Counted from the stretch's first letter, positions 52,410 through 64,000 are shown. The stretch: 64,000 nucleotides of DNA from a candidate division WOR-3 bacterium (GCA_024277525.1 JAJRUZ010000021.1:6480-70479), one strand, 5' to 3'. The notes: generated by a model from the sequence alone, not told the origin. A program made the numbers and translations.

Positions 52410-52901
52410 ATGAAAAAAATAATTGCCATATTAACAATAATCGGAGTGATGTCCTTATACGCACAGGAAGAGAAAAAATTTGAATACATAGCGAATAAAA
52501 AATGTAAAATGTGTCATAAGGCTCAATGGAAAATATGGGAAGGTACAAAACATGCAAAAGCTTTTGAGACACTCAAATCCGAGGAATCTGCTAAAATTGC
52601 AAAAGAAATGAAAATAGAGGATGCCACTACTTCTGAAAAATGTATAACCTGCCACAAGGGATGGGATGGAGAAGAAGGAGTCGGTTGTCAGGACTGTCAC
52701 GGACCCGGTTCTGCTTATTATAAAATGTCTGTAATGAAAGACATTACTGCTGGAAAAGTAAAAGGAGAAGAAGTGGGATTGGTTAAACCGGATGAAGAAT
52801 TATGTAAAAAATGTCATAACAAAGAAAGCCCGACTTACAAAGAGTTTAAAGCAGAAGAATTCTTTAAAGAAATCGCACATCCGACACCTGAGAAAAAGTA
52901 A
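52410..52901 (+). CDS. Periplasmic tetraheme c-type cytochrome (small, 163 aa)
   Basis: Signal peptide MKKIIAILTIIGVMSLYA. Four CxxCH motifs: CKMCH, CITCH, CQDCH, CKKCH. RBS AGGAGG upstream. Confidence 0.8.
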   Translation: MKKIIAILTIIGVMSLYAQEEKKFEYIANKKCKMCHKAQWKIWEGTKHAKAFETLKSEESAKIAKEMKIEDATTSEKCITCHKGWDGEEGVGCQDCHGPGSAYYKMSVMKDITAGKVKGEEVGLVKPDEELCKKCHNKESPTYKEFKAEEFFKEIAHPTPEKK

Positions 52902-53740: not shown

Positions 53741-54868
53741 ATGAAAAAACTATTAAGCCTTTTTATTATTCTCCTGGTCGGTTGTAAGGCAAAGAGTGTG
53801 AAGATAGGTGTAATTTTGCCTTTAACCGGCTCTACTGCTTCCTATGGTAAAGAGGTATTAAAGGGGATTTAACTTGCGGTATCGAATTACAATAAAACAG
53901 GTCGGAAGACCAGAGTAGAACTTTTTATATATGACAATCAAGGTTTTTCAAAAAATACTGTTGAGGGCATTAGAAAATTCGTAAAGGATGAAAATTGTAT
54001 CGCAATCATAGGTCCTGTTATTTCCAAATTGGCAATCAAAGCATCGAATGAGGCAGAGAAAGGTAAGATTCCGCTTATTACTCCTACCGCCACCCATCCT
54101 TATGTAACCCGGGACAAAAATTATACTTTCAGAGTATGTTATACGGATCCTGTTCAGGGAGAGACAATGGCAAAATTTACAATTGAAGAACTTAAAATGA
54201 AAAAAGCAGGAGTTCTTTATGAAGCAAACAATCCTTATTCCGAAGGACTTTTCAGAAAATTTTCACTACTTTTTGAAAAACTCGGAGGAAAGGTCGTGGT
54301 GAACGATTTTTATGTACAGGGAGATACCGCATTTACTGATAAGTTAGAAAAAATAAAGAAAAAAAATCCTGATGTAGTTTTCATACCAGGTTATGTTGAG
54401 GATGTGATTCATATTTTGAAAGAGGCAAAGAAAATCGGATTTACCGAACCGGTATTTTTGGGAGGAGACGGATGGCATTCTCCGCTTTTGATAGAAAAAG
54501 CAGGTTCTTTATTTGAAAAAGATATCACCGCCTATTTTACTTCTCCTTTTTTTCCAGAACTTGAAGAGAATAAAGTTAAAGATTTTATAAAAAAATATAA
54601 AGATGAATATAATGAGGAACCACAGGCATTTGCTGCACTTGCATATGATGCGGTCTCTATTGTTCTTGATGGGATAAAGAAAATTGAACATCCCACACGT
54701 GAGAAGATATTTAAATACATCAATGAACTTGAAGCATATCAAGGAGTGACAGGGAGGATAAGTTTCAAGGGCAAAAAAGACCCCTTGAGGGATGTTTACA
54801 TTTTAAGACCTACCACTTCGGGTTTTGAGCTTTATAAAAAGATTTCATCCGGTAATATAGGAGAGTAA
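53741..54868 (+). pseudogene. LivK/periplasmic-binding-protein type 1 (branched-chain amino acid ABC binding protein family), interrupted by an in-frame TAA at 53870..53872
   Basis: ATG at 53741 with RBS AAAGGAGG. Reads MKKLLSLFIILLVGCKAKSVKIGVILPLTGSTASYGKEVLKGI*LAVSNYNKTGRK...IGPVISKLAIKASNEAEKGKIPLITP..., same frame throughout, so the track ORF 54029..54868 is only the downstream part. The stop sits where family members usually have Glu (..G(I/A)ELAxxEIN..). Confidence 0.7.
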
Positions 54869-54870
54869 AA

Positions 54871-55614
54871 ATGCCGCAGCAGGTAAAACGTTTAATTGTT
54901 GTTTTTGTTGCCTTAATTCTTGTTTTCTTTGTCATAAGGAGTTTTCTCGTTCCTCCCACTTTCGGAGAATACGGACATTACAGAGCGTCTTCTGTAAAGG
55001 AAATTTTATCTCAAAATATAAAATATGCGGGTGAAGTTGTATGTGAGGAGTGTCATGATGATATTGTTGAGATAAAGTCCGGATCTTATCATAAAAGGCT
55101 TTCATGTGAAACATGTCACGGTCCTGCTTATGAACATTCTCAGGCTCCTGATGAATATACTCCTTACATTCCTTCAAAAAGGGATTATTGTTCCCTGTGT
55201 CACGGTTATAATCCTTCACGTCCTACTGGTTTTCCTCAGATAGACCCTGTAAAGCATAATCCTTTGAGACCCTGTATAAAATGCCATAATCCGCATGATC
55301 CGACACCGCCCGAGGTTCCGAAAGAATGCAAAGGATGTCATGAAGAAATTTACAGAACCAAGATTTTATCTCCTCATGCCTTACTCAATTGTACGGAATG
55401 TCACAAAGCCCCTGAGGAACACAAGATAAATCCGCGTGCCTTCAGACCCACAAAACCGAGTTCGAGAAAGTTCTGCGGTAAATGTCACAGTAAAGAAGCA
55501 AAAGTTTCAGAAGAAATTCCGAGAGTTGACATTATTTATCACGGATACGGAAACCTTTGTTGGGAATGCCATTACCCTCATTTTCCGGAAGCTCATACAA
55601 CAAAGAAGGAGTGA
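54871..55614 (+). CDS. Membrane-anchored octaheme c-type cytochrome
   Basis: 247 aa. N-terminal TM helix LIVVFVALILVFFVI. Eight CxxCH: CEECH, CETCH, CSLCH, CIKCH, CKGCH, CTECH, CGKCH, CWECH. Confidence 0.8.
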   Translation: MPQQVKRLIVVFVALILVFFVIRSFLVPPTFGEYGHYRASSVKEILSQNIKYAGEVVCEECHDDIVEIKSGSYHKRLSCETCHGPAYEHSQAPDEYTPYIPSKRDYCSLCHGYNPSRPTGFPQIDPVKHNPLRPCIKCHNPHDPTPPEVPKECKGCHEEIYRTKILSPHALLNCTECHKAPEEHKINPRAFRPTKPSSRKFCGKCHSKEAKVSEEIPRVDIIYHGYGNLCWECHYPHFPEAHTTKKE

Positions 55615-55619
55615 AATAA

Positions 55620-56390
55620 ATGGAGAGAAGGGAATTTTTGAAAAAAATTTTAAAATGGATATTTATATTGATAGGAGGAGGATTGGTCCTCAGGCTGCTT
55701 TCTGTAATAAGAAGAAAACCGGCTCCGATCGGCTCAATCTATGAAAATTACGACCCGACAGAGCATTATTATGCTATGGGAATTGATATTGAAAAATGTA
55801 TAGGATGTGGCAGATGTGCTGCTGCCTGTAAAATAGAAAATAATGTCCCTAAGGAACCTTACTTTTTCAGAACATGGGTGGAGCGATATATAATTACCGT
55901 TGATGGGGAGACATTTGTGGATAGTCCTAACGGTGGAATAGACGGTTTTCCACCCTTGGGTAGTGAAAAAGAAATATTAAGGAGTTTTTTTGTTCCCAAA
56001 CTGTGTAATCATTGTGATAATCCTCCGTGTGTTCAGGTATGTCCTGTAGGAGCAACCTATAAGACCATAGACGGAGTCATCCTGGTTGACAGTAAGTATT
56101 GTATAGGTTGCAGATACTGTATTCAAGCATGTCCTTACGGAGCCAGGTTCTTGCATCCCAAAACGAGAACGGCAGAAAAATGCACTTTTTGCTATCACAG
56201 AATCACAAAAGGACTCAAACCTGCATGTGTTGAAGTTTGTCCGACTCAGGCAAGGATATTCGGTGAAGTAAAACCGAGAAATAATCCGCTTGCAAGATTT
56301 GTTCGTATGCATAAAATAAGAGTTTTAAAGCCCTCCCTTAACACAGAACCAAAAGTTTATTATGCAAACTTAGACAAGGAGGTAACTTAA
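55620..56390 (+). CDS. Tat-exported 4x[4Fe-4S] ferredoxin-type subunit (NrfC/PsrB/HybA family)
   Basis: 256 aa. Twin-arginine motif MERREFLKK. Four Cys clusters: CIGCGRCAAAC; CNHCDNPPCVQVCP; CIGCRYCIQACP; CTFC...CVEVCP. Confidence 0.85.
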   Translation: MERREFLKKILKWIFILIGGGLVLRLLSVIRRKPAPIGSIYENYDPTEHYYAMGIDIEKCIGCGRCAAACKIENNVPKEPYFFRTWVERYIITVDGETFVDSPNGGIDGFPPLGSEKEILRSFFVPKLCNHCDNPPCVQVCPVGATYKTIDGVILVDSKYCIGCRYCIQACPYGARFLHPKTRTAEKCTFCYHRITKGLKPACVEVCPTQARIFGEVKPRNNPLARFVRMHKIRVLKPSLNTEPKVYYANLDKEVT

Positions 56391-56391
56391 G

Positions 56392-57612
56392 GTGGAAAAG
56401 TTATTGGAACAATTAGCCCTTGCCCTTAAGGAGGTAACCGGTTATATATATCCCAATGAAATAGAGTTACACTGGGGTCTCCTTATTGTGATTTATCCTT
56501 ATATTACCGGGCTTGTTGCAGGTGCCTTTATTCTTGCTTCCCTTGTGAAAGTTTTTAATGTAAAAGAGGTTGCTCCCACATACAGGCTTTCCCTTCTTAC
56601 AGCACTTGCCTTTTTATTATGTGCTCCTTTACCCTTGCTTGCACACTTGGGGCATCCGGAGCGTTCTTTTGAGATTTTCCTTACCCCTCATTTCAGCTCC
56701 GCAATGGCTATGTTCGGATTCGTATATGCCTGGTATCTGCTCGTGGTTTTGTTACTCGAAATATGGTTTGAGTACAGAAAGAGTTTTGTAATATGGAGCA
56801 GAACAGAAAAGGGTCTAAAAAAAATCCTTTATTATATTTTCACTCTCGGTTCGATGGATATTTCTGATGAGGCTGTTGAGTTTGATCATAAAGCAGCCAA
56901 ATTTATAACCGTTATAGGGATACCATCTGCTTTTCTCTTGCATGGATATGTGGGTTTTATTTTCGGATCTGTAAAGGCAAATCCATGGTGGAGCAGTGTA
57001 TTAATGCCGATAGTATTCCTGTTTTCTGCAATGGTTTCCGGAATAGCCCTTGTTTTATTTCTTTATTACATCATCACCCTCATAAGGGGAGAAAAAATTG
57101 ATATGAAATGTATGGATAAACTTGCGAGTTATCTCCTATATGCAATGATTCTTGATTTCTCACTTGAAGCCCTTGATTTCATACATCGCGTATATGAATC
57201 CGAGGAATCCATAAAAATTCTTTCAAAGTTGCTCTTCAGTAAACTTTTTGTAAGTTTGCTCATTATTCAGGTCTTACTGGGTACACTTATTCCCATGGGT
57301 CTTATAGCCTGGACGAAAATTATAAAATTACCTTCAGAACTCAGAAGGGTTATCTATTTTATTTCCGCCTTTCTGGTTCAAGTCGGTATTTTCACGACAA
57401 GATGGAATGTAGTTATCGGAGGACAGTTATTTTCAAAAAGTTTAAAAGGGCTCATGACCTATAAAGTGGAACTGATGGGAACAGAGGGGTTACTTGTCGG
57501 GATTTTCCTGCTTTTACTGCCTTTCATAATTCTTTATATATTGCTTAAACTGCTTCCGCCTTGGAAAGAGGAAGCAGAACCGGTAAAAGAATCAAAGGAA
57601 GCACATGTTTAA
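56392..57612 (+). CDS. NrfD/PsrC-family polytopic membrane protein (quinone-interacting subunit)
   Basis: 406 aa, GTG start 8 nt after AAGGAGG, ~10 TM helices. N-terminal region ...YPNEIELHWGLLIVIYPYITGLVAGAFILASL is typical of NrfD-like proteins. Directly follows the FeS subunit. Confidence 0.7.
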   Translation: MEKLLEQLALALKEVTGYIYPNEIELHWGLLIVIYPYITGLVAGAFILASLVKVFNVKEVAPTYRLSLLTALAFLLCAPLPLLAHLGHPERSFEIFLTPHFSSAMAMFGFVYAWYLLVVLLLEIWFEYRKSFVIWSRTEKGLKKILYYIFTLGSMDISDEAVEFDHKAAKFITVIGIPSAFLLHGYVGFIFGSVKANPWWSSVLMPIVFLFSAMVSGIALVLFLYYIITLIRGEKIDMKCMDKLASYLLYAMILDFSLEALDFIHRVYESEESIKILSKLLFSKLFVSLLIIQVLLGTLIPMGLIAWTKIIKLPSELRRVIYFISAFLVQVGIFTTRWNVVIGGQLFSKSLKGLMTYKVELMGTEGLLVGIFLLLLPFIILYILLKLLPPWKEEAEPVKESKEAHV

Positions 57613-58015
57613 TTTAAGAAGTATATTTAAAAAATTGTTTTTTTTCTTTATGTTCATGTGGATTCTGTTTGCAATGATTTTTTCGGTAATTTATATTAAT
57701 ATTTACGGCGGGGAAAGGGTAAGGGGTGTAAAAACCTTTAATGTTAAAGAATTCAAACCTTTTGATGTTAAGTTCTTTGCATATAAAGAGCCGATATTCA
57801 TTATTCATAAAAAGGGAGAATATCTTGTGCTTTCCGCACTCTGCACATTCAGGAGAGGGATTTTGAATTACAATGCAGAAGATAAAGTATTTGAATGTCC
57901 TGTACACGGTGAGAAATATGATTTAAACGGTAATCCATTAAATAAAAAATTACCGCCTCTTAAAAAATTTTCCTTTACCATTAAAGGAGGGGACCTCTAT
58001 GTCATTATGGAATAA
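57605..58015 (+). CDS. Degenerate Rieske-fold protein (paralog of the downstream Rieske protein, lacking 2 of 4 cluster ligands)
   Basis: 136 aa with an N-terminal TM helix. Aligns with the canonical Rieske at 61932: LSALCTFRRGIL vs FSAVCTHLGCIV; VFECPVHGEKYDLNGNPL vs EFLCPCHAGRFDANGAVI. Box I His and Cys and box II Cys are replaced. Confidence 0.55.
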   Translation: MFNLRSIFKKLFFFFMFMWILFAMIFSVIYINIYGGERVRGVKTFNVKEFKPFDVKFFAYKEPIFIIHKKGEYLVLSALCTFRRGILNYNAEDKVFECPVHGEKYDLNGNPLNKKLPPLKKFSFTIKGGDLYVIME

Positions 58016-59087
58016 AATAATAGATTGGTTGGAAAGAAGAATATCCCTCAATGAATTTATTTCCTTTATTACTTCTTTCGGTATTTTTTATACTCACATT
58101 CCTCCTGACAAGCCTGTCAAGGAAGCCATAAAGGATGCAATGGAGACAATTTCTCCCTCTTATGCAAGATGGCCTTATATGCTCGGTATTATCACTTTCC
58201 TTTTATTTTTGATTCAGGTGGTAACCGGTGTTTTGCTTTTGTTTTTTTATGTACCATCCATAGACAAAGCCTATGAAAGCACTGTTACCATAATAAGAGA
58301 TAGACCTTTCGGATTTTTTATATTTAATATTCATCACTGGACAGCAATTTTGCTTATTTGTGTTGTTCTATTCAGATTGGGAAGATTCATTTATGATAAA
58401 GTATTTTCACCTCCCAGGGAGATTTTCTGGATTCTCGGATTTTTAATTTTTATATTTGTAATACTTGAATACATTACAGGAATCCCCTTGCCTATGGATG
58501 CACAAGCAGGTTGGCTCTCCTACAGAATATTTGAAATTTTTAATCCTGCTCCATTTCTTGGGGTACTTAATCGTGTGCTTTTCGGTGCCATTAAATTCGG
58601 AGATGTTTTCATTTTAAGAAATTATATCTTGCATGTCTTTGTTTTCCCCCTTGTTGTATTTTTCCTGTTTTATATCCATTTTCTTTCTGTAAGAAAAGTC
58701 GGATTGAGTTACGGTAAAATGTCTTTAAAGTCTCCCTTTCCCGGTTATTTCTTTGAAATTCTGATTACAATATTTATAACCTTCGGAGTAGTTTTTACCC
58801 TTGCAACTCTGTTTCCCAGAGCAATATTTCAAGAATTTGTACCTTACAAAAATTACACCCAATTTAAAGTTCCTTTCTTTTTGCTTTTCTTTGATTTCTT
58901 AAGAGATAAATTACCCCTTACCCTTTATTCTATCATTTTTACACTTTTTATAATTCTTCCTTTCTTTTTACCTTGGATTGATCGTTCTGCTCCTGTTCCC
59001 CTCATAAAAAAACCCGTTGCTTTTATTTTGTATTTCGGAGGTCTACTTATTATAATAGTAATTTCGGTAATGGGATTAAGGGTATGA
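57999..59087 (+). CDS. Cytochrome b (bc1/b6-type), divergent copy
   Basis: 362 aa. Conserved PREIFWILGF, helix-D His pair (ILHVF...YIHFLSVRK). In helix B only the first His (NIHHW) is kept. The position of the second ligand is Arg/Leu (VVLFRLGRF) rather than His. Confidence 0.75.
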   Translation: MSLWNKIIDWLERRISLNEFISFITSFGIFYTHIPPDKPVKEAIKDAMETISPSYARWPYMLGIITFLLFLIQVVTGVLLLFFYVPSIDKAYESTVTIIRDRPFGFFIFNIHHWTAILLICVVLFRLGRFIYDKVFSPPREIFWILGFLIFIFVILEYITGIPLPMDAQAGWLSYRIFEIFNPAPFLGVLNRVLFGAIKFGDVFILRNYILHVFVFPLVVFFLFYIHFLSVRKVGLSYGKMSLKSPFPGYFFEILITIFITFGVVFTLATLFPRAIFQEFVPYKNYTQFKVPFFLLFFDFLRDKLPLTLYSIIFTLFIILPFFLPWIDRSAPVPLIKKPVAFILYFGGLLIIIVISVMGLRV

Positions 59088-60226
59088 TGGATTTATTTTT
59101 TACTATTTTTTTGATAACTGTCTCTCCTGATTCTACGAAATGTTTTTTATGTCACAGTGAAATAAGGGCTCAATATAAGAACAGTGTTCATTATAGTGAA
59201 GAGATAATTTGTAGTGATTGTCACGGAGGAAATTCTTTTACCACTGATATGAAAAAGGCTCACGGAGGAAACTTCATAGGGATCCCCGGAAAAAGAAAAA
59301 TACTTAAAGTGTGTTCAAATTGTCACTCATCAGCAGATAAAATGGCTCCTTATGGAGTCCCTTTTAATCAGGAAGCACTTTATTTGATGTCTGCTCACGG
59401 TAAGTTGCTCTTAAAAGGTAAGAATATTCAAAATATTCCTGTATGTTCGGATTGTCATGATTATCATGATGTGAGAAAGGTCAGTGATAAATATTCACCT
59501 GCAAATAAAATGAATATTCATAAAACCTGCGGAGTCTGTCATGAGAGTGAGGAAAAAAAGTATAAAAACAGTATTCATTACTACTATTTGATCCAAAAAG
59601 GAGATTTAAGTTCTCCTACCTGTATTGATTGTCACGGAAGTCACGGTGCATATCCTCCGGGTTATAAAGATATTGATAAAATATGCGGAAAATGTCATCA
59701 GCTTGTGAGAAAGTATTTTATAAGCGGTATTCATTACAAACCTTTTATAGAGACCGGTCTGAAAGAATGTGAAGCATGTCACGGTAATCACGAAGTTAAA
59801 GAAAAGTCGTTGGAGCTTTGGGATAGAACATGCACGGGTTGTCATTCCGAAAAAGAAGAGGCAATAAGGGTTTCTCAGGAGATTAAAATTTTTCTTAAAG
59901 AAACATATGAAAGTTATGAAGAGGCAAATGAATGGGTAAAAAAAATAGAGAAAATACCGCTTGAAGTTGTTGATTTAAAAAACAGGTTGGAAGATGCAAG
60001 AATAGATATGGAAGCGAATCTCGGAATTACCCATCTTTTCTCCGTAGAGGAGGTTAAAAAAGAAATAGAAAAATATAAGGGAGTATTTGACGATGTGAAA
60101 CATGAAGCAGTTTACAAATTCAAGTTGTTTCAGACGAGGTATCTTCTTATCCCGATTTTATGGTTTATGATTTTTGTAACAATATTCTTAATAATAGAGG
60201 TCAGAAGAGGCGTGAAGAAAGAATGA
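59084..60226 (+). CDS. Nonaheme c-type cytochrome with C-terminal TM anchor
   Basis: 380 aa. Nine CxxCH: CFLCH, CSDCH, CSNCH, CSDCH, CGVCH, CIDCH, CGKCH, CEACH, CTGCH. C-terminal helix LLIPILWFMIFVTIFLIIEV. Start ATGA overlaps the cytochrome b stop. Confidence 0.8.
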   Translation: MMDLFFTIFLITVSPDSTKCFLCHSEIRAQYKNSVHYSEEIICSDCHGGNSFTTDMKKAHGGNFIGIPGKRKILKVCSNCHSSADKMAPYGVPFNQEALYLMSAHGKLLLKGKNIQNIPVCSDCHDYHDVRKVSDKYSPANKMNIHKTCGVCHESEEKKYKNSIHYYYLIQKGDLSSPTCIDCHGSHGAYPPGYKDIDKICGKCHQLVRKYFISGIHYKPFIETGLKECEACHGNHEVKEKSLELWDRTCTGCHSEKEEAIRVSQEIKIFLKETYESYEEANEWVKKIEKIPLEVVDLKNRLEDARIDMEANLGITHLFSVEEVKKEIEKYKGVFDDVKHEAVYKFKLFQTRYLLIPILWFMIFVTIFLIIEVRRGVKKE

Positions 60227-61916
60227 GAATTATTTCTATCAGGAAATTTTCTCCTTATTTGCTTACTTTCTTTGTTTTAATAGCGACACTTTTTGTTGTT
60301 GTTATTTTTATGTTTCAAGTTACTTCTCAGCCTGCTTTTTGCGGTTCCTGTCATGTTATGAGACCTTATTATGAATCATGGAAAACTTCGACTCATAACG
60401 GTATACCATGTGTGGAGTGTCATATCCCGCCCGGAATTACATCCGAATTCAGGAAAAATATGAAGCCCTTGCAATGGTGGCAAGGTACTTCACCGGGACT
60501 TACGGAACAAACCCTTGGACAGAGGTTGAGGATGCAGCTTGTTTGAGATGTCATGAAAAAAGGCTACTTTCCGGAAAGGTCATTTTTAAAAATGTTTTAT
60601 TTGACCATTCTCCGCATTTAACACAGTTAAGAAGGGGGAAGAAGCTGAGATGTACTTCCTGTCATTCACAAATTGTTCAGGGAGCTCATATTAAGGTAAC
60701 AGAGGGTACATGTTTTTTATGTCATTTTAAAGAAGCGGAACTCGGAAAAGGAACCGCAAGATGTACAATCTGTCATGAAACCCCGAAAAAAGAAATAAAA
60801 ATAGGAACCTTTTCTTTTAATCATTCGGATGTGGTGAAGTATGATATGGATTGTTTGATGTGCCATGCACATTCGGTGGAAGGGGAAGGGAATGTACCGA
60901 AAGAGAGGTGCTTTACATGTCACAATGAACCGGAAAGAGTAGCCGAATATGGAAAAATAACCGAATTACATCAAATTCATGTTACAGAACATAAAGTGGA
61001 GTGTTTAAACTGTCATCAGGAGATTTATCACGGTCCGCCCAAAGAAATAGAGGAGGTTGTGAAAACTCCTTGCAGTTCATGCCATTTGAGGGGACATTCT
61101 CCTCAAAAAGACCTTTACATGGGAATAGGAGGGAAAGGTGTAACTCCTTTGCCTTCTGTTATGTTTCTTTCGGGTGTGAGATGTGAAGGATGTCATATTC
61201 TTGAAGCAGATAAAACCGGAATTAAAAAATCAGGACCCTTTTCATGTATGAACTGTCACGGAGCTTCTTATTATAAGATATATTTAGAATGGAAAAAGGC
61301 GATTGAAGAAAGAGTTAAAAAGACAGAAGAAATTTTAAAAAAGGCGAAGAAAATTATAGGAACTTCAAAATTATTGAATGATGCCTATTACAATCTTAAC
61401 CTTGTTAAAAAAGGACACGGAATTCATAATGTTTTATACTCAGAAATGTTGCTCTCAAAATCAATTGAGTTTGTGAATGAGGAATTAAAGAAAAAGGGTA
61501 AAAAACCCTTTGAAAAACCTTTTAGAACACTTTCTCCTTCTTATAAGGTATGCATAAGGTGTCATTACGGTATTGAAGAAAAAATCAAGGACTTTTTCGG
61601 GATAAAATTTAAACATTATGTTCATGTTTCGGGCAAAAAATTTGATTGTTTGGTTTGTCATAATGAAAATCCTGAAGGAAAACCCCATATGATGACCAAA
61701 TTTAAAACAAAAAAAGATTGCTTTAAATGTCATCATAGGAAAAAGATAAAGAGAAAATGCATAAGCTGTCATACCGACATTTTAAAAAGGGCTTTAGCTT
61801 TTAAAGATAAAAAATTTTCCCACAGTTTACATTATAAAGAGATGGATATCTCATGCAATGATTGTCATTCGGAATCCGGAGCATTAAAGAAGAATTTCTG
61901 CACAGAATGTCATTAA
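60223..61916 (+). pseudogene. NapC/NirT(NrfH)-type membrane-anchored multiheme cytochrome c with ~18 CxxCH, split by a frameshift between ~60408 and 60546 (authentic or sequencing error)
   Basis: N-terminal part (ATG 60223, ATGA overlap with the upstream stop) encodes TM helix + FCGSCHVMRPYYESWKTSTHNGIPCVECH, typical of the NapC/NirT N-terminus, then ends at 60546. The remaining 16 CxxCH motifs continue from 60408 in a different frame. Both frames are open across the junction, which contains homopolymers (aaaaa, ccc). Confidence 0.7.
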
Positions 61917-61931
61917 AAAGGAGGAATAAAA

Positions 61932-62372
61932 ATGGATAAAAAAATGACACGAAGAAAATTTCTTGGAAAATTAGTAGCAGGAATCTTGGGTGGAACAATT
62001 GCTTTATTTACCGCACCGATAGCATTTTATCTTTTACCCAAAAAGGAGAAGAAAAAACTTAACATTTTTGTTGATCCCAAGGGCAATCCTATACCGGAGA
62101 GTTCGATAAAGGAAGGAGATTATGAGCTCGGACTTTCTGATGAAGGTCCTGTTATAATAGTGAGAAGGGAGGGTGTATTATATGCTTTTTCTGCCGTATG
62201 TACACACTTAGGATGTATAGTAAAGTGGATTCCATCCAGGAATGAATTTTTATGTCCCTGTCATGCAGGAAGATTTGATGCGAACGGTGCGGTAATTTCC
62301 GGTCCTCCTCCGGCTCCCCTTAAAAGGTACAAAATTGAAATCACATCCGAGGGTTTTATAATACTTTCTTAA
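61932..62372 (+). CDS. Rieske [2Fe-2S] iron-sulfur protein (Tat signal)
   Basis: 146 aa. MDKKMTRRKFLGKL twin-arginine motif. Box I CTHLGC, box II CPCHAG. Confidence 0.85.
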   Translation: MDKKMTRRKFLGKLVAGILGGTIALFTAPIAFYLLPKKEKKKLNIFVDPKGNPIPESSIKEGDYELGLSDEGPVIIVRREGVLYAFSAVCTHLGCIVKWIPSRNEFLCPCHAGRFDANGAVISGPPPAPLKRYKIEITSEGFIILS

Positions 62373-62392
62373 ATTTCATCCGGAGGAATAAA

Positions 62393-63445
62393 ATGAACAA
62401 AATATTAAAAGCAATAGATGAGAGGTTGAAATTGTCAGAACTTTATGAAAAATACCTTTCGGGATATATGGTTCCCGGAAATCTCAATTTTTGGTATTGT
62501 TTAGGCTCTGTGCTTATTGTGATATTCTCAATTCAGATTATAACGGGTATTTTGCTTTTGATGTATTACATTCCTTCTGTTGATAAGGCATTTGAAAGCG
62601 TCATGTATATTACGAACAAGGTACCTTTCGGATGGCTTATAAGAAGGGTTCATGCCGTGGGTGCGAATCTCTTTGTTCTCGTTCTTTTCTTTCACATGTT
62701 TTCGGTATTGATAATGGGTTCTTATAAAAAACCGCGGGAAATTCACTGGATAACGGGTTGTCTTCTTTTTGCACTTGTTCTCGTAGAGTGTTTATCCGGT
62801 TATCTCTTACCTTGGAGTCAATTGTCCTATTGGGCAACAACCGTAGCAACGAACTTTCCGGGTGCATTCCCTTTCATAGGTGATTTTCTTGTTTATGTAA
62901 TAAGGGGAGGGGAGAAGGTTACCCAGCTTACACTCGGAAGGTTCTTTTCAATTCATGTATCTTTGATTCCGTTTACAATTTTTATTTTGATAGCAATTCA
63001 TATATTTGTGATAAGAAGGACAGGTATTTCCTTTCCTCCGGGGACGGACGAGACCAAGGTTAAAAAAATTCCGTTTTTCCCGCATTTTGTGCTCGAAGAT
63101 TTAAAGGTAATCTATATATTTCTTGCGATTATGTTTTTGATTGTTTTCTTTTATCCGCAATTTGTTTTGCCGAGAGATGCTTTGATACCCGCTGATCCCC
63201 TCTCAACTCCGGAACATATAAAACCCGAATGGTATTTTCTTGCAAATTATCAATTTTTAAAATTGATTCCGAATGAATTTCTCGGTATCTTTCTTCAACT
63301 TATAATTGCTGTTATCATTTTTTTACTCCCTTTTATTGACAGAACACCCGAAAGGAGAATATGGAAAAGACCGGTATTTTTCGGAATCGTAATATTTGGT
63401 ATAATTTTTTATGTCCTGCTAACAATATGGGGGTATATATCATGA
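62393..63445 (+). CDS. Cytochrome b (bc1/b6-type), canonical copy
   Basis: 350 aa. Both His pairs present (RRVHAVGA...FFHMF; FSIHVSLIP...AIHIFVIRR). PREIHWITG, LPWSQLSYWATTVATN, PEWYFL. Confidence 0.9.
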   Translation: MNKILKAIDERLKLSELYEKYLSGYMVPGNLNFWYCLGSVLIVIFSIQIITGILLLMYYIPSVDKAFESVMYITNKVPFGWLIRRVHAVGANLFVLVLFFHMFSVLIMGSYKKPREIHWITGCLLFALVLVECLSGYLLPWSQLSYWATTVATNFPGAFPFIGDFLVYVIRGGEKVTQLTLGRFFSIHVSLIPFTIFILIAIHIFVIRRTGISFPPGTDETKVKKIPFFPHFVLEDLKVIYIFLAIMFLIVFFYPQFVLPRDALIPADPLSTPEHIKPEWYFLANYQFLKLIPNEFLGIFLQLIIAVIIFLLPFIDRTPERRIWKRPVFFGIVIFGIIFYVLLTIWGYIS

Positions 63446-64000
63446 AAAAAGTAAAATTTTTAATTATTTTATTTTTCATTTTCGGATTTTATGATATCTT
63501 AAATGCAAAAAAGGAGAATGTTTGTATAGAGTGTCATCTTGAAACCGGAGAAGAGAGTTTAATGAAACCTGTGGAAGAATGGAGAAAAAGTGTGCATTCG
63601 GAAAATGGGATTTCATGTCATCATTGCCACGGAGGGGATCCGAATGACGAAGATATAGCAATGGCTCCTGAGGCAGGATTTATTGGTGTTCCCGAATATG
63701 AGGAAATTCCAGAATTTTGCGGGAAATGTCATATAGGAGTTAAGGAGAATTACTTAAAAAGTGCACATGGCAAAACACTTCCGGATGGTCCTAACTGTGT
63801 AACCTGTCATACCGCACATAATCAAAAAAAAGCCGGTGTTTATCTTATCAATAAAGAGTTATGTTCTCAATGTCATTCCTATGAAAGAGCGGAGAAAATA
63901 AAATTTGCCCTTTTGAGCACCGAAAAGACGATATCCTCTCTTTCAAAAAGAATTGATAATTTATGGACAAACGGATTTGATGCTGAGCAGATGAGAAAAA
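63442..64000 (+). CDS. Multiheme c-type cytochrome (at least 5 CxxCH in the visible part), 3' end outside the window
   Basis: ATG at 63442 overlapping the cytochrome b stop (ATGA). Signal peptide MKKVKFLIILFFIFGFYDILNA, then CIECH, CHHCH, CGKCH, CVTCH, CSQCH. Not in the ORF track because it is not closed. Confidence 0.75.
   Translation, partial: MKKVKFLIILFFIFGFYDILNAKKENVCIECHLETGEESLMKPVEEWRKSVHSENGISCHHCHGGDPNDEDIAMAPEAGFIGVPEYEEIPEFCGKCHIGVKENYLKSAHGKTLPDGPNCVTCHTAHNQKKAGVYLINKELCSQCHSYERAEKIKFALLSTEKTISSLSKRIDNLWTNGFDAEQMRK

What the first reader, a model, noticed from the sequence alone, without database searches (positions are those of the whole stretch)
57605..63445. Tandem Rieske/cytochrome b paralog pairs; the upstream pair has lost Rieske ligands and one heme-b histidine
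Two Rieske+cytochrome b modules lie 4 kb apart: 57605-59087 and 61932-63445. The downstream pair is canonical (CTHLGC/CPCHAG; both His pairs in cytochrome b). The upstream Rieske homologue reads CTFRRG/CPVHGE and keeps only 1 Cys and 1 His. Its cytochrome b partner has Arg/Leu where the second helix-B His (the bH ligand) should be. This looks like a duplicated bc module in which one copy was repurposed as a structural or pseudo-subunit, or uses non-canonical cofactor ligation, within a multiheme-cytochrome complex.
Basis: seen in the sequence. Interest (0 to 1): 0.6.

Follow-up and report, generated by a model that had tools for sequence, protein, structure and literature searches.

The report
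Half-stripped cytochrome bc module, conserved
Next to an ordinary Rieske/cytochrome b respiratory pair, this bacterium keeps a second, ancient pair that has lost one haem site and its iron-sulfur cluster but is still under selection and tied to two giant multihaem cytochromes, so it probably cannot run the textbook Q cycle.

Summary
57605-59087 and 61932-63445 each encode a Rieske-fold protein plus a full-length cytochrome b. The downstream pair has every canonical ligand. The upstream cytochrome b has Arg126 where the second helix-B His (haem bH ligand) belongs. It also has VPFF instead of PEWY.

The upstream Rieske reads CTFRRG/CPVHGE. One ligand His, both disulfide Cys, the Pro loop and the Tat motif are gone.

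This is not local decay.
- The His-to-Arg change is fixed in a distinct cytochrome b clade: 37 sequences from WOR-3, Acidobacteriota, Eisenbacteria and other MAGs.
- Wherever flanking sequence was available, that clade sits in the order Rieske, cytochrome b, 9-haem c, 18-haem NapC/NrfH-type c.
- A canonical pair is often beside it.
- Rieske cluster loss is confined to a WOR-3 subclade of seven orthologues. They share the motif C[TP]FRR.../CPxHGEK and show dN/dS of 0.11-0.19.

Most likely the module works only on the periplasmic side, using haem bL alone, as anchor and relay for a 27-haem wire. The mechanism is inferred.

I found no published description. Verdict: new variant of a known kind, interest about 0.62.

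The parts
57605..58015 (+). Cluster-less Rieske-fold subunit (136 aa). It has an N-terminal TM helix and no Tat motif. It reads CTFRRG (57842-57859) and CPVHGE (57896-57913).
   Evidence: Pfam Rieske 33.7 bits. The AF2 model has pLDDT 90.9, and Foldseek top hits are Rieske proteins 8hn2_A and 9rk4_A (rmsd 1.9 A). Seven orthologues share the motif. dN/dS is 0.11-0.19.
57999..59087 (+). Arg-type cytochrome b (362 aa, unsplit). His112 and His212 are the bL ligands. Arg126 (58374-58376) replaces a bH ligand. His227 is kept. VPFF (58869-58880) replaces PEWY. It has no haem-ci Cys (PYMLG).
   Evidence: The AF2 model matches cytochrome b of Aquifex bc1, 6kls_B, with TM 0.76.
59084..60226 (+). 9-haem cytochrome c with a C-terminal TM anchor. 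Its gene position and anchor match those of cytochrome c1/f.
   Evidence: 9 CxxCH and a TM segment at 349-377. An orthologue follows the Arg-type cytochrome b in every locus where downstream sequence was held.
60223..61916 (+). 18-haem NapC/NirT/NrfH-type cytochrome c with an N-terminal TM anchor. It is split here by a -1 frameshift in an A-run at 60454-60458.
   Evidence: Pfam Cytochrom_NNT 44 bits. NCBIfam NrfH 67 bits over aa 15-151. Repairing the frameshift gives 564 aa (565 codons with the stop) and 18 CxxCH. Orthologues are intact.
61932..62372 (+). Canonical Rieske protein (146 aa) with Tat motif, CTHLGC and CPCHAG.
62393..63445 (+). Canonical cytochrome b (350 aa, unsplit) with all four His, PEWY, and Cys36 at the b6 Cys35 position.
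63442..64000 (+). Multihaem cytochrome c. Its start overlaps the cytochrome b stop (ATGA). It runs off the window end.
   Evidence: 5 CxxCH in the part seen.
54871..55614 (+). 8-haem cytochrome c with an N-terminal TM anchor. First gene of an 8-haem / FeS / NrfD trio.
   Evidence: It is conserved beside Arg-type modules in L001, L018 and L027.
55620..56390 (+). Tat-exported 4x[4Fe-4S]-type ferredoxin subunit (NrfC/DsrO/TtrB-like).
   Evidence: Pfam Fer4_11 100 bits. NCBIfam hits are all below their cut-offs.
56392..57612 (+). NrfD/PsrC-type quinone-interacting membrane subunit. Its stop overlaps the start of the Rieske-like gene.
   Evidence: Pfam NrfD 137.5 bits. Orthologues score 568-638 bits in L001, L018 and L027.

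Best explanation
The upstream pair belongs to an old, distinct branch of Rieske/cytochrome b modules. I call it Arg-type.

In this branch the cytoplasmic-side half of the Q-cycle machinery has been given up. The helix-B ligand of haem bH is always Arg, there is no haem-ci Cys, and the Glu of PEWY is Pro. The periplasmic-side haem bL (His112/His212) is retained.

The module is always encoded with a C-terminally anchored 9-haem cytochrome c, in the cytochrome c1/f position. It is also always encoded with an N-terminally anchored 18-haem NapC/NrfH-type cytochrome c, a family of quinol dehydrogenases.

I infer that it works only on the periplasmic side. It would link the menaquinone pool to a 27-haem periplasmic wire, with no transmembrane electron transfer and so no Q cycle of its own.

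In the WOR-3 subclade that includes this window, the Rieske subunit has also lost its [2Fe-2S] cluster and its Tat export signal, and the Qo pocket has been remodelled (VPFF, LPM). Here the Rieske-like protein and cytochrome b most likely serve as a bL-only membrane scaffold and relay for the two multihaem cytochromes. Quinol turnover would then fall to the NrfH-type subunit, or to the neighbouring NrfCD-type and canonical Rieske/cytochrome b modules.

Shown: ligand losses, clade-wide conservation, synteny, purifying selection, retained folds.
Inferred: absence of haem bH and of the cluster, the subunit contacts, the direction of electron flow, and the physiological partner.
For: - Arg126 faces the bH His in three alignments.
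- In a profile search of 1.84 billion representatives, the 11 best-scoring proteins (540-361 bits) all carry Arg at this position. The remaining Arg-type hits are mostly fragments and interleave with His-bearing proteins from 314 bits down.
- In an NJ tree, the 37 Arg-type sequences plus one His-bearing relative (P0097) form a clade in 93 of 100 bootstraps.
- The partner His227 is replaced by T, N, S or Q in several sublineages, as expected if the bH site is vacant.
- The gene order Rieske, cytochrome b, 9-haem, 18-haem holds in every locus with enough flank, across WOR-3, Acidobacteriota, Eisenbacteria and other MAGs.
- The degenerate Rieske motif is shared by seven orthologues, all without RR.
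- dN/dS is 0.11-0.19 for the Rieske-like gene.
- The Rieske fold is predicted with pLDDT 90.9, and the cytochrome b fold with TM 0.76 to bc1 cytochrome b.
- The subclades nest with 100/100 bootstrap support, giving the order of events: Arg, then xPFF, then cluster loss.
- Precedent: Pyrobaculum cytochrome b lacks a bH ligand and was read as loss of that haem (PMC4122944).
Against: - No cofactor was observed. Everything rests on sequence.
- His227, helix-A Gly63 and Arg129 remain conserved in this subclade, so a five-coordinate haem at the old bH site is not excluded.
- The Rieske-like protein keeps Cys80, Cys98 and His101 and gains invariant Arg83, Arg84 and Glu103. These could form another site.
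- In this window the 18-haem gene is frameshifted and the nearby binding-protein gene has an in-frame TAA. This copy of the cluster may be damaged or mis-assembled.
- No terminal reductase or outer-membrane conduit was identified nearby.
Confidence: 0.55

Rival explanations
1. Heterodimer. The Arg-type cytochrome b pairs with the canonical cytochrome b encoded beside it. An electron reaching haem bL of the stripped protomer crosses to bL of the complete protomer and on to its bH/Qi site. One Q-cycle core would then serve two different periplasmic cytochrome sets.
For: A canonical Rieske/cytochrome b set lies directly after, or close to, the Arg-type module in the window and in L001, L004, L012-L015, L021 and L027, which span three phyla. 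Electron transfer between the two bL haems of a dimer is established for bc1 (PMC4330944, listed).
Against: L005, L022 and L026 have no canonical pair within 10 kb on either side. L007, with about 9 kb upstream and 7 kb downstream, has none either. The canonical partners fall in three different cytochrome b clades, so they are not one co-evolving lineage. No interface analysis was possible.
Confidence: 0.15
2. Non-canonical ligation. The old bH site still holds a haem, five-coordinate on His227 with Arg126 as a distal residue. The Rieske-like protein binds a different metal centre through Cys80, Cys98, His101 and perhaps Glu103. The module would then keep redox or catalytic chemistry at both sites.
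For: His227, Gly63 and Arg129 are conserved in the WOR-3, Blastocatellia and other subgroups. Cys80, Cys98, His101, Arg83, Arg84 and Glu103 are invariant in the six aligned degenerate orthologues and also present in a seventh.
Against: His227 is T, N, S or Q in at least six sublineages of the same clade. Arg is not a known haem axial ligand (general knowledge). All seven degenerate Rieske orthologues have lost the Tat motif, which suggests that no cofactor is inserted in the cytoplasm. The Pro loop is also lost.
Confidence: 0.15
3. Decaying duplicate. The upstream pair is made of pseudogenes or non-functional remnants of a tandem duplication.
For: Ligands are missing. Two neighbouring genes in this window are disrupted: a frameshift at 60454-60458 and an in-frame TAA at 53870-53872.
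Against: The reading frames are intact, at 135-139 aa and 362 aa, in seven or more independent assemblies. dN/dS is 0.08-0.19. The replacement residues themselves are conserved. The paralogues share only 29-31% identity and sit in different clades.
Confidence: 0.03
4. Alignment artefact. A shifted register supplies the missing His and Cys.
For: His113 lies next to His112 in this sequence.
Against: His113 is Tyr, Arg, Trp, Phe or Ala in relatives. The only invariant His residues in the family are 112 and 212. BLASTP, phmmer against PDB b6 and MAFFT all agree on the register. The Rieske-like protein has only two Cys, and its other His (His67) is not conserved.
Confidence: 0.02

Closest known systems
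Canonical Rieske/cytochrome b complexes (bc1, b6f, menaquinol:cytochrome c reductases)
   Same: The cytochrome b and Rieske folds are homologous. The gene order is Rieske, cytochrome b, c-type cytochrome. Haem bL ligands are kept, and the cytochrome c has a C-terminal anchor. The downstream pair in the window is an ordinary member.
   Different: The upstream module lacks a bH ligand, the PEWY Glu and the haem-ci Cys. In this lineage it also lacks the [2Fe-2S] ligand set, the disulfide, the Pro loop and the Tat signal. As encoded, it cannot carry out a Q cycle.
Geobacter ExtO/ExtP (Cbc6, GSU2930-2937) and Kuenenia Rieske/cytochrome b complexes with multihaem cytochromes
   Same: A Rieske/cytochrome b core is encoded with several multihaem cytochromes c in place of a monohaem c1 (PMC2825233, PMC5877670, PMC12954380). 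ExtP is the best NCBIfam match of the upstream cytochrome b.
   Different: The ExtP score is 132 bits against a cut-off of 290. In Kuenenia the Rieske proteins keep the canonical two-His/two-Cys ligand set. ExtO is described as a Rieske iron-sulfur protein. The papers read do not state the b-haem ligands or report any loss. The 9-haem plus 18-haem NrfH-type pairing is different.
Pyrobaculum cytochrome b lacking a haem bH ligand (Kao and Hunte 2014, PMC4122944)
   Same: A natural cytochrome b lineage that consistently lacks one bH histidine. The authors read this as loss of that haem.
   Different: In Pyrobaculum the missing ligand is the helix-D His, within a single archaeal genus. Here it is the helix-B His, replaced by an invariant Arg across several bacterial phyla, with fixed multihaem partners.
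Cluster-less Rieske-fold proteins such as NirD (Pfam Rieske_2)
   Same: They have a Rieske fold without a [2Fe-2S] cluster. The NirD-like structure 3c0d appears among the fold matches.
   Different: Pfam Rieske_2 scores only 17 bits against a cut-off of 27. The protein here is membrane-anchored, encoded with a cytochrome b, and derives from a bc-type Rieske subunit.

Membership tests
Rieske/cytochrome b complex (upstream pair 57605-59087) | Cytochrome b homology and fold | tested here: met
   Pfam Cytochrome_B 94 bits. PDB b6 match E 2e-28. Foldseek TM 0.76 to 6kls_B.
Rieske/cytochrome b complex (upstream pair 57605-59087) | Four His ligands for haems bL and bH | tested here: not met
   The four positions read His112, Arg126, His212, His227. 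Arg is fixed in all 37 clade members.
Rieske/cytochrome b complex (upstream pair 57605-59087) | Rieske CxH...CxxH ligands with the disulfide pair | tested here: not met
   The motifs are CTFRRG and CPVHGE. The box-I His and both disulfide Cys are absent.
Rieske/cytochrome b complex (upstream pair 57605-59087) | Qo motif of the PEWY type (P-x-W-Y/F) | tested here: not met
   The window has VPFF. The rest of the Arg-type clade has PPWY or PPWF.
Rieske/cytochrome b complex (upstream pair 57605-59087) | Twin-arginine export signal on the Rieske subunit | tested here: not met
   The N-terminus is MFNLRSIFKK. All seven degenerate orthologues lack RR, whereas intact partners have it (114 of 119 sequences checked).
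Rieske/cytochrome b complex (upstream pair 57605-59087) | Actual haem and Fe-S content, and quinol:cytochrome c activity | not testable with these tools
   This needs purified protein.
Rieske/cytochrome b complex (downstream pair 61932-63445) | All of the above sequence features | tested here: met
   CTHLGC and CPCHAG, TRRKF, four His, PEWY. The best PDB match is Aquifex bc1 cytochrome b at E 3e-80.
Geobacter ExtP-type cytochrome b (NCBIfam NF040969) | Score at or above the curated cut-off of 290 bits | tested here: not met
   132 bits for the upstream and 205 bits for the downstream cytochrome b.
NapC/NirT/NrfH quinol dehydrogenase family (18-haem gene 60223-61916) | N-terminal TM helix plus the NNT tetrahaem domain | tested here: met
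   Pfam Cytochrom_NNT 44.3 bits against a cut-off of 24.1. TM segment at 8-41. It is not an NrfH equivalog (67 bits against 134).
NrfCD/PsrBC-type quinone module (55620-57612) | NrfD membrane subunit with a Tat-exported 4Fe-4S subunit | tested here: met
   Pfam NrfD 137.5 bits and Fer4_11 100 bits. The FeS protein starts MERREFLKK. No NCBIfam equivalog reaches its cut-off.
NirD-like cluster-less Rieske (Pfam Rieske_2) | Score at or above the gathering cut-off of 27 bits | tested here: not met
   17.1 bits.

The most novel reading that the evidence does not exclude
The Arg-type Rieske / cytochrome b / 9-haem / 18-haem module is an undescribed class of bc-derived enzyme with no cytoplasmic-side half. 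Where the Rieske cluster is intact (Acidobacteriota, Eisenbacteria), quinol oxidation at Qo would send one electron through Rieske to the 9-haem chain. The other would go through haem bL to the NrfH-type 18-haem chain. That would be bifurcation, or in reverse confurcation, carried out entirely on the periplasmic side. In WOR-3 the Rieske subunit has been converted into a cluster-less protein, or one with a different metal, that selection still retains.
Probability: 0.25. Interest if true: 0.85.

Novelty: new variant of a known kind. Interest (0 to 1): 0.62.

Why it matters
Rieske/cytochrome b complexes are treated as obligate Q-cycle machines. [quoted passage not shown]

A clade spread over several phyla fixed Arg at a bH ligand yet kept the Rieske protein, a Qo-like pocket and haem bL. 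This shows that the Qo half can be used without the Qi half. It provides a natural system for asking where the second, low-potential electron goes.

The WOR-3 branch adds a cluster-less Rieske subunit that is still under selection. This is an example of a redox subunit becoming a structural one.

These modules sit in large multihaem gene islands of uncultured soil, sediment and hot-spring lineages. They may therefore matter for extracellular or mineral electron transfer in those organisms.

Tried and rejected
- The word-indexed homologue search with the degenerate Rieske found only itself. Orthologues came instead from the neighbours of cytochrome b homologues and from a pattern scan.
- Exact look-ups of two window proteins were not on record, so the source record and the sequence beyond the window end were not recovered.
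- Cluster look-up gave no names.
- The first bootstrap script timed out. I rewrote it.
- Seven literature searches found no description of an Arg-for-His cytochrome b clade or of a cluster-less bc-type Rieske subunit. The library is incomplete, so this is absence of evidence only.
- I considered and rejected the pseudogene reading, a shifted alignment register, and a recent tandem duplication (see rivals).
- PDB sequence search with the 9-haem protein gave only marginal cytochrome c3 hits.
- The wider window (AcrB, TonB receptor, T9SS-tail protein, glycosidase, histidine kinase) gave no clue to the electron donor or acceptor.

Full report
**What is in the window.** The + strand from about 52.4 kb to the window end is one dense respiratory gene island. 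Its genes, in order:
- a 4-haem cytochrome c (52410-52901);
- a DUF3108-like protein;
- a periplasmic binding protein;
- an 8-haem membrane-anchored cytochrome c (54871-55614);
- a Tat-exported 4Fe-4S protein (55620-56390);
- an NrfD-type membrane protein (56392-57612);
- a Rieske-like protein (57605-58015);
- a cytochrome b (57999-59087);
- a 9-haem cytochrome c with a C-terminal anchor (59084-60226);
- an 18-haem NapC/NrfH-type cytochrome c (60223-61916);
- a canonical Rieske protein (61932-62372);
- a canonical cytochrome b (62393-63445);
- another multihaem cytochrome c that runs off the end (63442 onward).

These assignments rest. Most genes overlap or abut, which suggests co-transcription (inference).

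**Checking the observation.** Both pairs are real homologues of Rieske and cytochrome b by Pfam and by direct comparison: 31% identity at E 2e-10, and 29% at E 8e-35.

The downstream pair has every canonical feature: CTHLGC and CPCHAG, a twin-arginine signal, His87/101/188/203, and PEWY. Its best solved relative is the Aquifex bc1 cytochrome b, at E 3e-80.

The upstream cytochrome b aligns to cytochrome b6 of PDB 1vf5 without gaps through helix B. His112 falls on b6 His86 and Arg126 on b6 His100, the ligand of the cytoplasmic-side haem. The paralogue alignment and the family alignment give the same register. Both helix-D histidines are present (His212, His227). The b6 Cys35 position is Met, and PEWY is VPFF.

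The upstream Rieske reads CTFRRG and CPVHGE, as reported. Both ligand cysteines and the box-II histidine survive. What is missing is the box-I histidine, both disulfide cysteines, the GPPP loop and the Tat motif.

**A clade, not a local accident.** A homologue search found 15 relatives at 30-66% identity, and all have Arg at position 126.

A profile search of 1.84 billion cluster representatives returned about 17 representatives with Arg at that position. The 11 best-scoring proteins (540-361 bits) all have it. The others are mostly fragments and interleave with His-bearing proteins from 314 bits downward.

In an NJ tree of 88 sequences, the 37 Arg-type proteins plus one His-bearing relative (P0097) form a clade in 93 of 100 bootstraps.

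Named genomes that carry the clade include candidate division WOR-3, Blastocatellia, Terriglobales, other Acidobacteriota and Candidatus Eisenbacteria.

Only His112 and His212 are invariant histidines. The fourth ligand position is His in many members but Thr, Asn, Ser or Gln in others. That is the pattern expected if the bH site no longer binds a bis-His haem.

Other clade-specific changes:
- Pro for the Glu of PEWY.
- An invariant Arg176 in the cd helix, where canonical proteins have Val or Ile.
- Loss of the canonical Arg at the b6 Arg83 position.

**Conserved partners.** Every locus with enough flanking sequence has the same order: Rieske, Arg-type cytochrome b (the genes usually overlap), a 9-haem cytochrome c, then an 18-haem NapC/NrfH-type cytochrome c.

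A canonical Rieske / cytochrome b / multihaem c set follows directly in L012-L015, as it does in the window. It lies nearby in L001, L004, L021 and L027. None was seen within the sequence held for L005, L007, L022 or L026.

The 8-haem / FeS / NrfD trio just upstream in the window recurs with very high scores (NrfD 568-638 bits) beside Arg-type modules in L001 and in two Eisenbacteria loci.

**Rieske loss is lineage-specific.** Among the best 120 Rieske partners of this family, 118 have the full CxHxxC/CxCH pattern and most have an RR motif. The window protein is one of two exceptions.

The degenerate form occurs in seven distinct orthologues: the window, L005, L006, L007, L009, L011 and L033. 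All come from the subclade whose cytochrome b has xPFF. They share C[TP]FRR[GAS]IL and CP[VAS]HGEK[FY]D, and all lack RR.

The nested clades have 100/100 bootstrap support. L001, which has an intact Rieske with IPFF, is sister to the degenerate group. The order of events was therefore Arg first, then Qo remodelling, then cluster loss.

For pairs with unsaturated dS, dN/dS is 0.11-0.19 for the Rieske-like gene and 0.08-0.13 for cytochrome b. AlphaFold2 predicts a confident Rieske fold with an N-terminal helix (pLDDT 90.9). The nearest structures are the Chlorobaculum and Kuenenia Rieske domains. The cytochrome b model matches full-length bc1 cytochromes b. These genes are maintained, not decaying.

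**How it probably works.** Shown: the sequence lacks the residues needed for bis-His haem bH, haem ci and a Rieske cluster, and it keeps those for haem bL. The rest is inferred.

Without a cytoplasmic-side redox centre, the module cannot pass electrons across the membrane. It would act on the periplasmic side only, coupling the menaquinone pool to the 9-haem and 18-haem cytochromes.

In lineages with an intact Rieske and PPWY, the two electrons of quinol may leave by two periplasmic routes: Rieske to the 9-haem chain, and bL to the NrfH-type chain.

In the window's lineage the Rieske route is gone. The pair most likely serves as a scaffold and bL relay. Quinol chemistry would be left to the NrfH-type subunit or to the adjacent NrfCD-type and canonical modules.

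Rivals that remain open:
- A heterodimer with the canonical cytochrome b. Frequent synteny supports it. Loci without a canonical neighbour, and canonical partners from three different clades, weaken it.
- Non-canonical ligation. His227, Gly63, Arg129 and the Cys/Cys/His/Glu set of the Rieske-like protein are conserved in this subclade.

**Comparison with known systems.** The closest named systems are the Geobacter ExtO/ExtP (Cbc6) cluster and the anammox Rieske/cytochrome b complexes. Both join a bc core to multihaem cytochromes (PMC2825233, PMC5877670, PMC12954380). ExtP is the best NCBIfam hit but falls well below its cut-off.

Loss of a bH ligand has one published precedent, in Pyrobaculum. 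It involves a different histidine (PMC4122944). The same paper removed sequences lacking any of the four histidines from its survey, which may explain why this clade has gone unnoticed.

I found no paper describing it. The library does not cover most subscription journals.

**Caveats.** In this window the 18-haem gene has a one-base deletion in an A-run (60454-60458), and the binding-protein gene has an in-frame TAA (53870-53872). Orthologues of both are intact, including the 18-haem gene in L033. These may be assembly errors or real damage to this copy of the island. The tree is NJ only. No cofactor content has been measured anywhere in this family.

**Verdict.** The finding is a new variant of a known kind, and the interesting unit is larger than the one flagged: a multi-phylum, bH-less Rieske/cytochrome b module with fixed 9- and 18-haem partners, of which the window shows the most reduced form.

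Noticed in passing
window 60454-60458 (gene 60223-61916): The 18-haem NapC/NrfH-type gene is split by a -1 frameshift in an A5 run. Orthologues read ...SEFRKKYEAL..., which needs A6. Adding one A restores a 564-aa protein with 18 CxxCH. Orthologues in L006, L007, L009 and L033 are intact.
   Followed up: yes
window 53741-54868, stop at 53870-53872: The Peripla_BP_6 binding-protein gene has an in-frame TAA where the L001 orthologue has Ser. This is the second disrupted gene within 7 kb. It could be an assembly error or real decay.
   Followed up: partly
window 54871-57612; L001 4070-6802; L018 6357-9373; L027 14474-17192: An 8-haem c / Tat 4Fe-4S / NrfD trio is very strongly conserved (NrfD 568-638 bits) next to Arg-type modules in WOR-3-like and Eisenbacteria genomes. 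This suggests a larger functional unit.
   Followed up: partly
window 62492-62506 (canonical cytochrome b, Cys36): The canonical cytochrome b is unsplit (350 aa, about 7 TM helices) yet carries the Cys at the b6 Cys35 position, the putative haem ci ligand. Baymann et al. 2012 reported that this Cys always accompanies a split cytochrome b.
   Followed up: no
P0128, P0222, P0229, P0084, P0214: Other cytochrome b representatives outside the Arg clade also lack bH ligands: Phe, Gln or Tyr at the helix-B position and Leu or Arg at the helix-D position. Some branch near the Arg clade. Loss of the bH site seems to have happened several times.
   Followed up: no
L005 13844-21089; L006 4179-11406; L007 12960-17398; L001 13774-21089: Downstream of the module in WOR-3-type loci lies a repeated series: 9-haem c plus Ni_hydr_CYTB-type cytochrome b pairs, another 18-haem c, and a 16-haem c fused to a CYTB domain (CbcL-like). 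Together they form a very large multihaem island.
   Followed up: no
window 53741-54868; L001 1-546 and 7398-9598; L003 327-1463: Peripla_BP_6-type solute-binding proteins recur inside these cytochrome clusters in WOR-3-like and Acidobacteriota loci. Their role there is unexplained.
   Followed up: no
window cytochrome b residues 109 and 176 (58323-58325, 58524-58526): The Arg clade has an invariant Arg176 in the cd helix, where canonical proteins have Val or Ile. It has replaced the canonical Arg at the b6 Arg83 position with His or Phe. This looks like a rearranged charge near haem bL and the Qo pocket.
   Followed up: no
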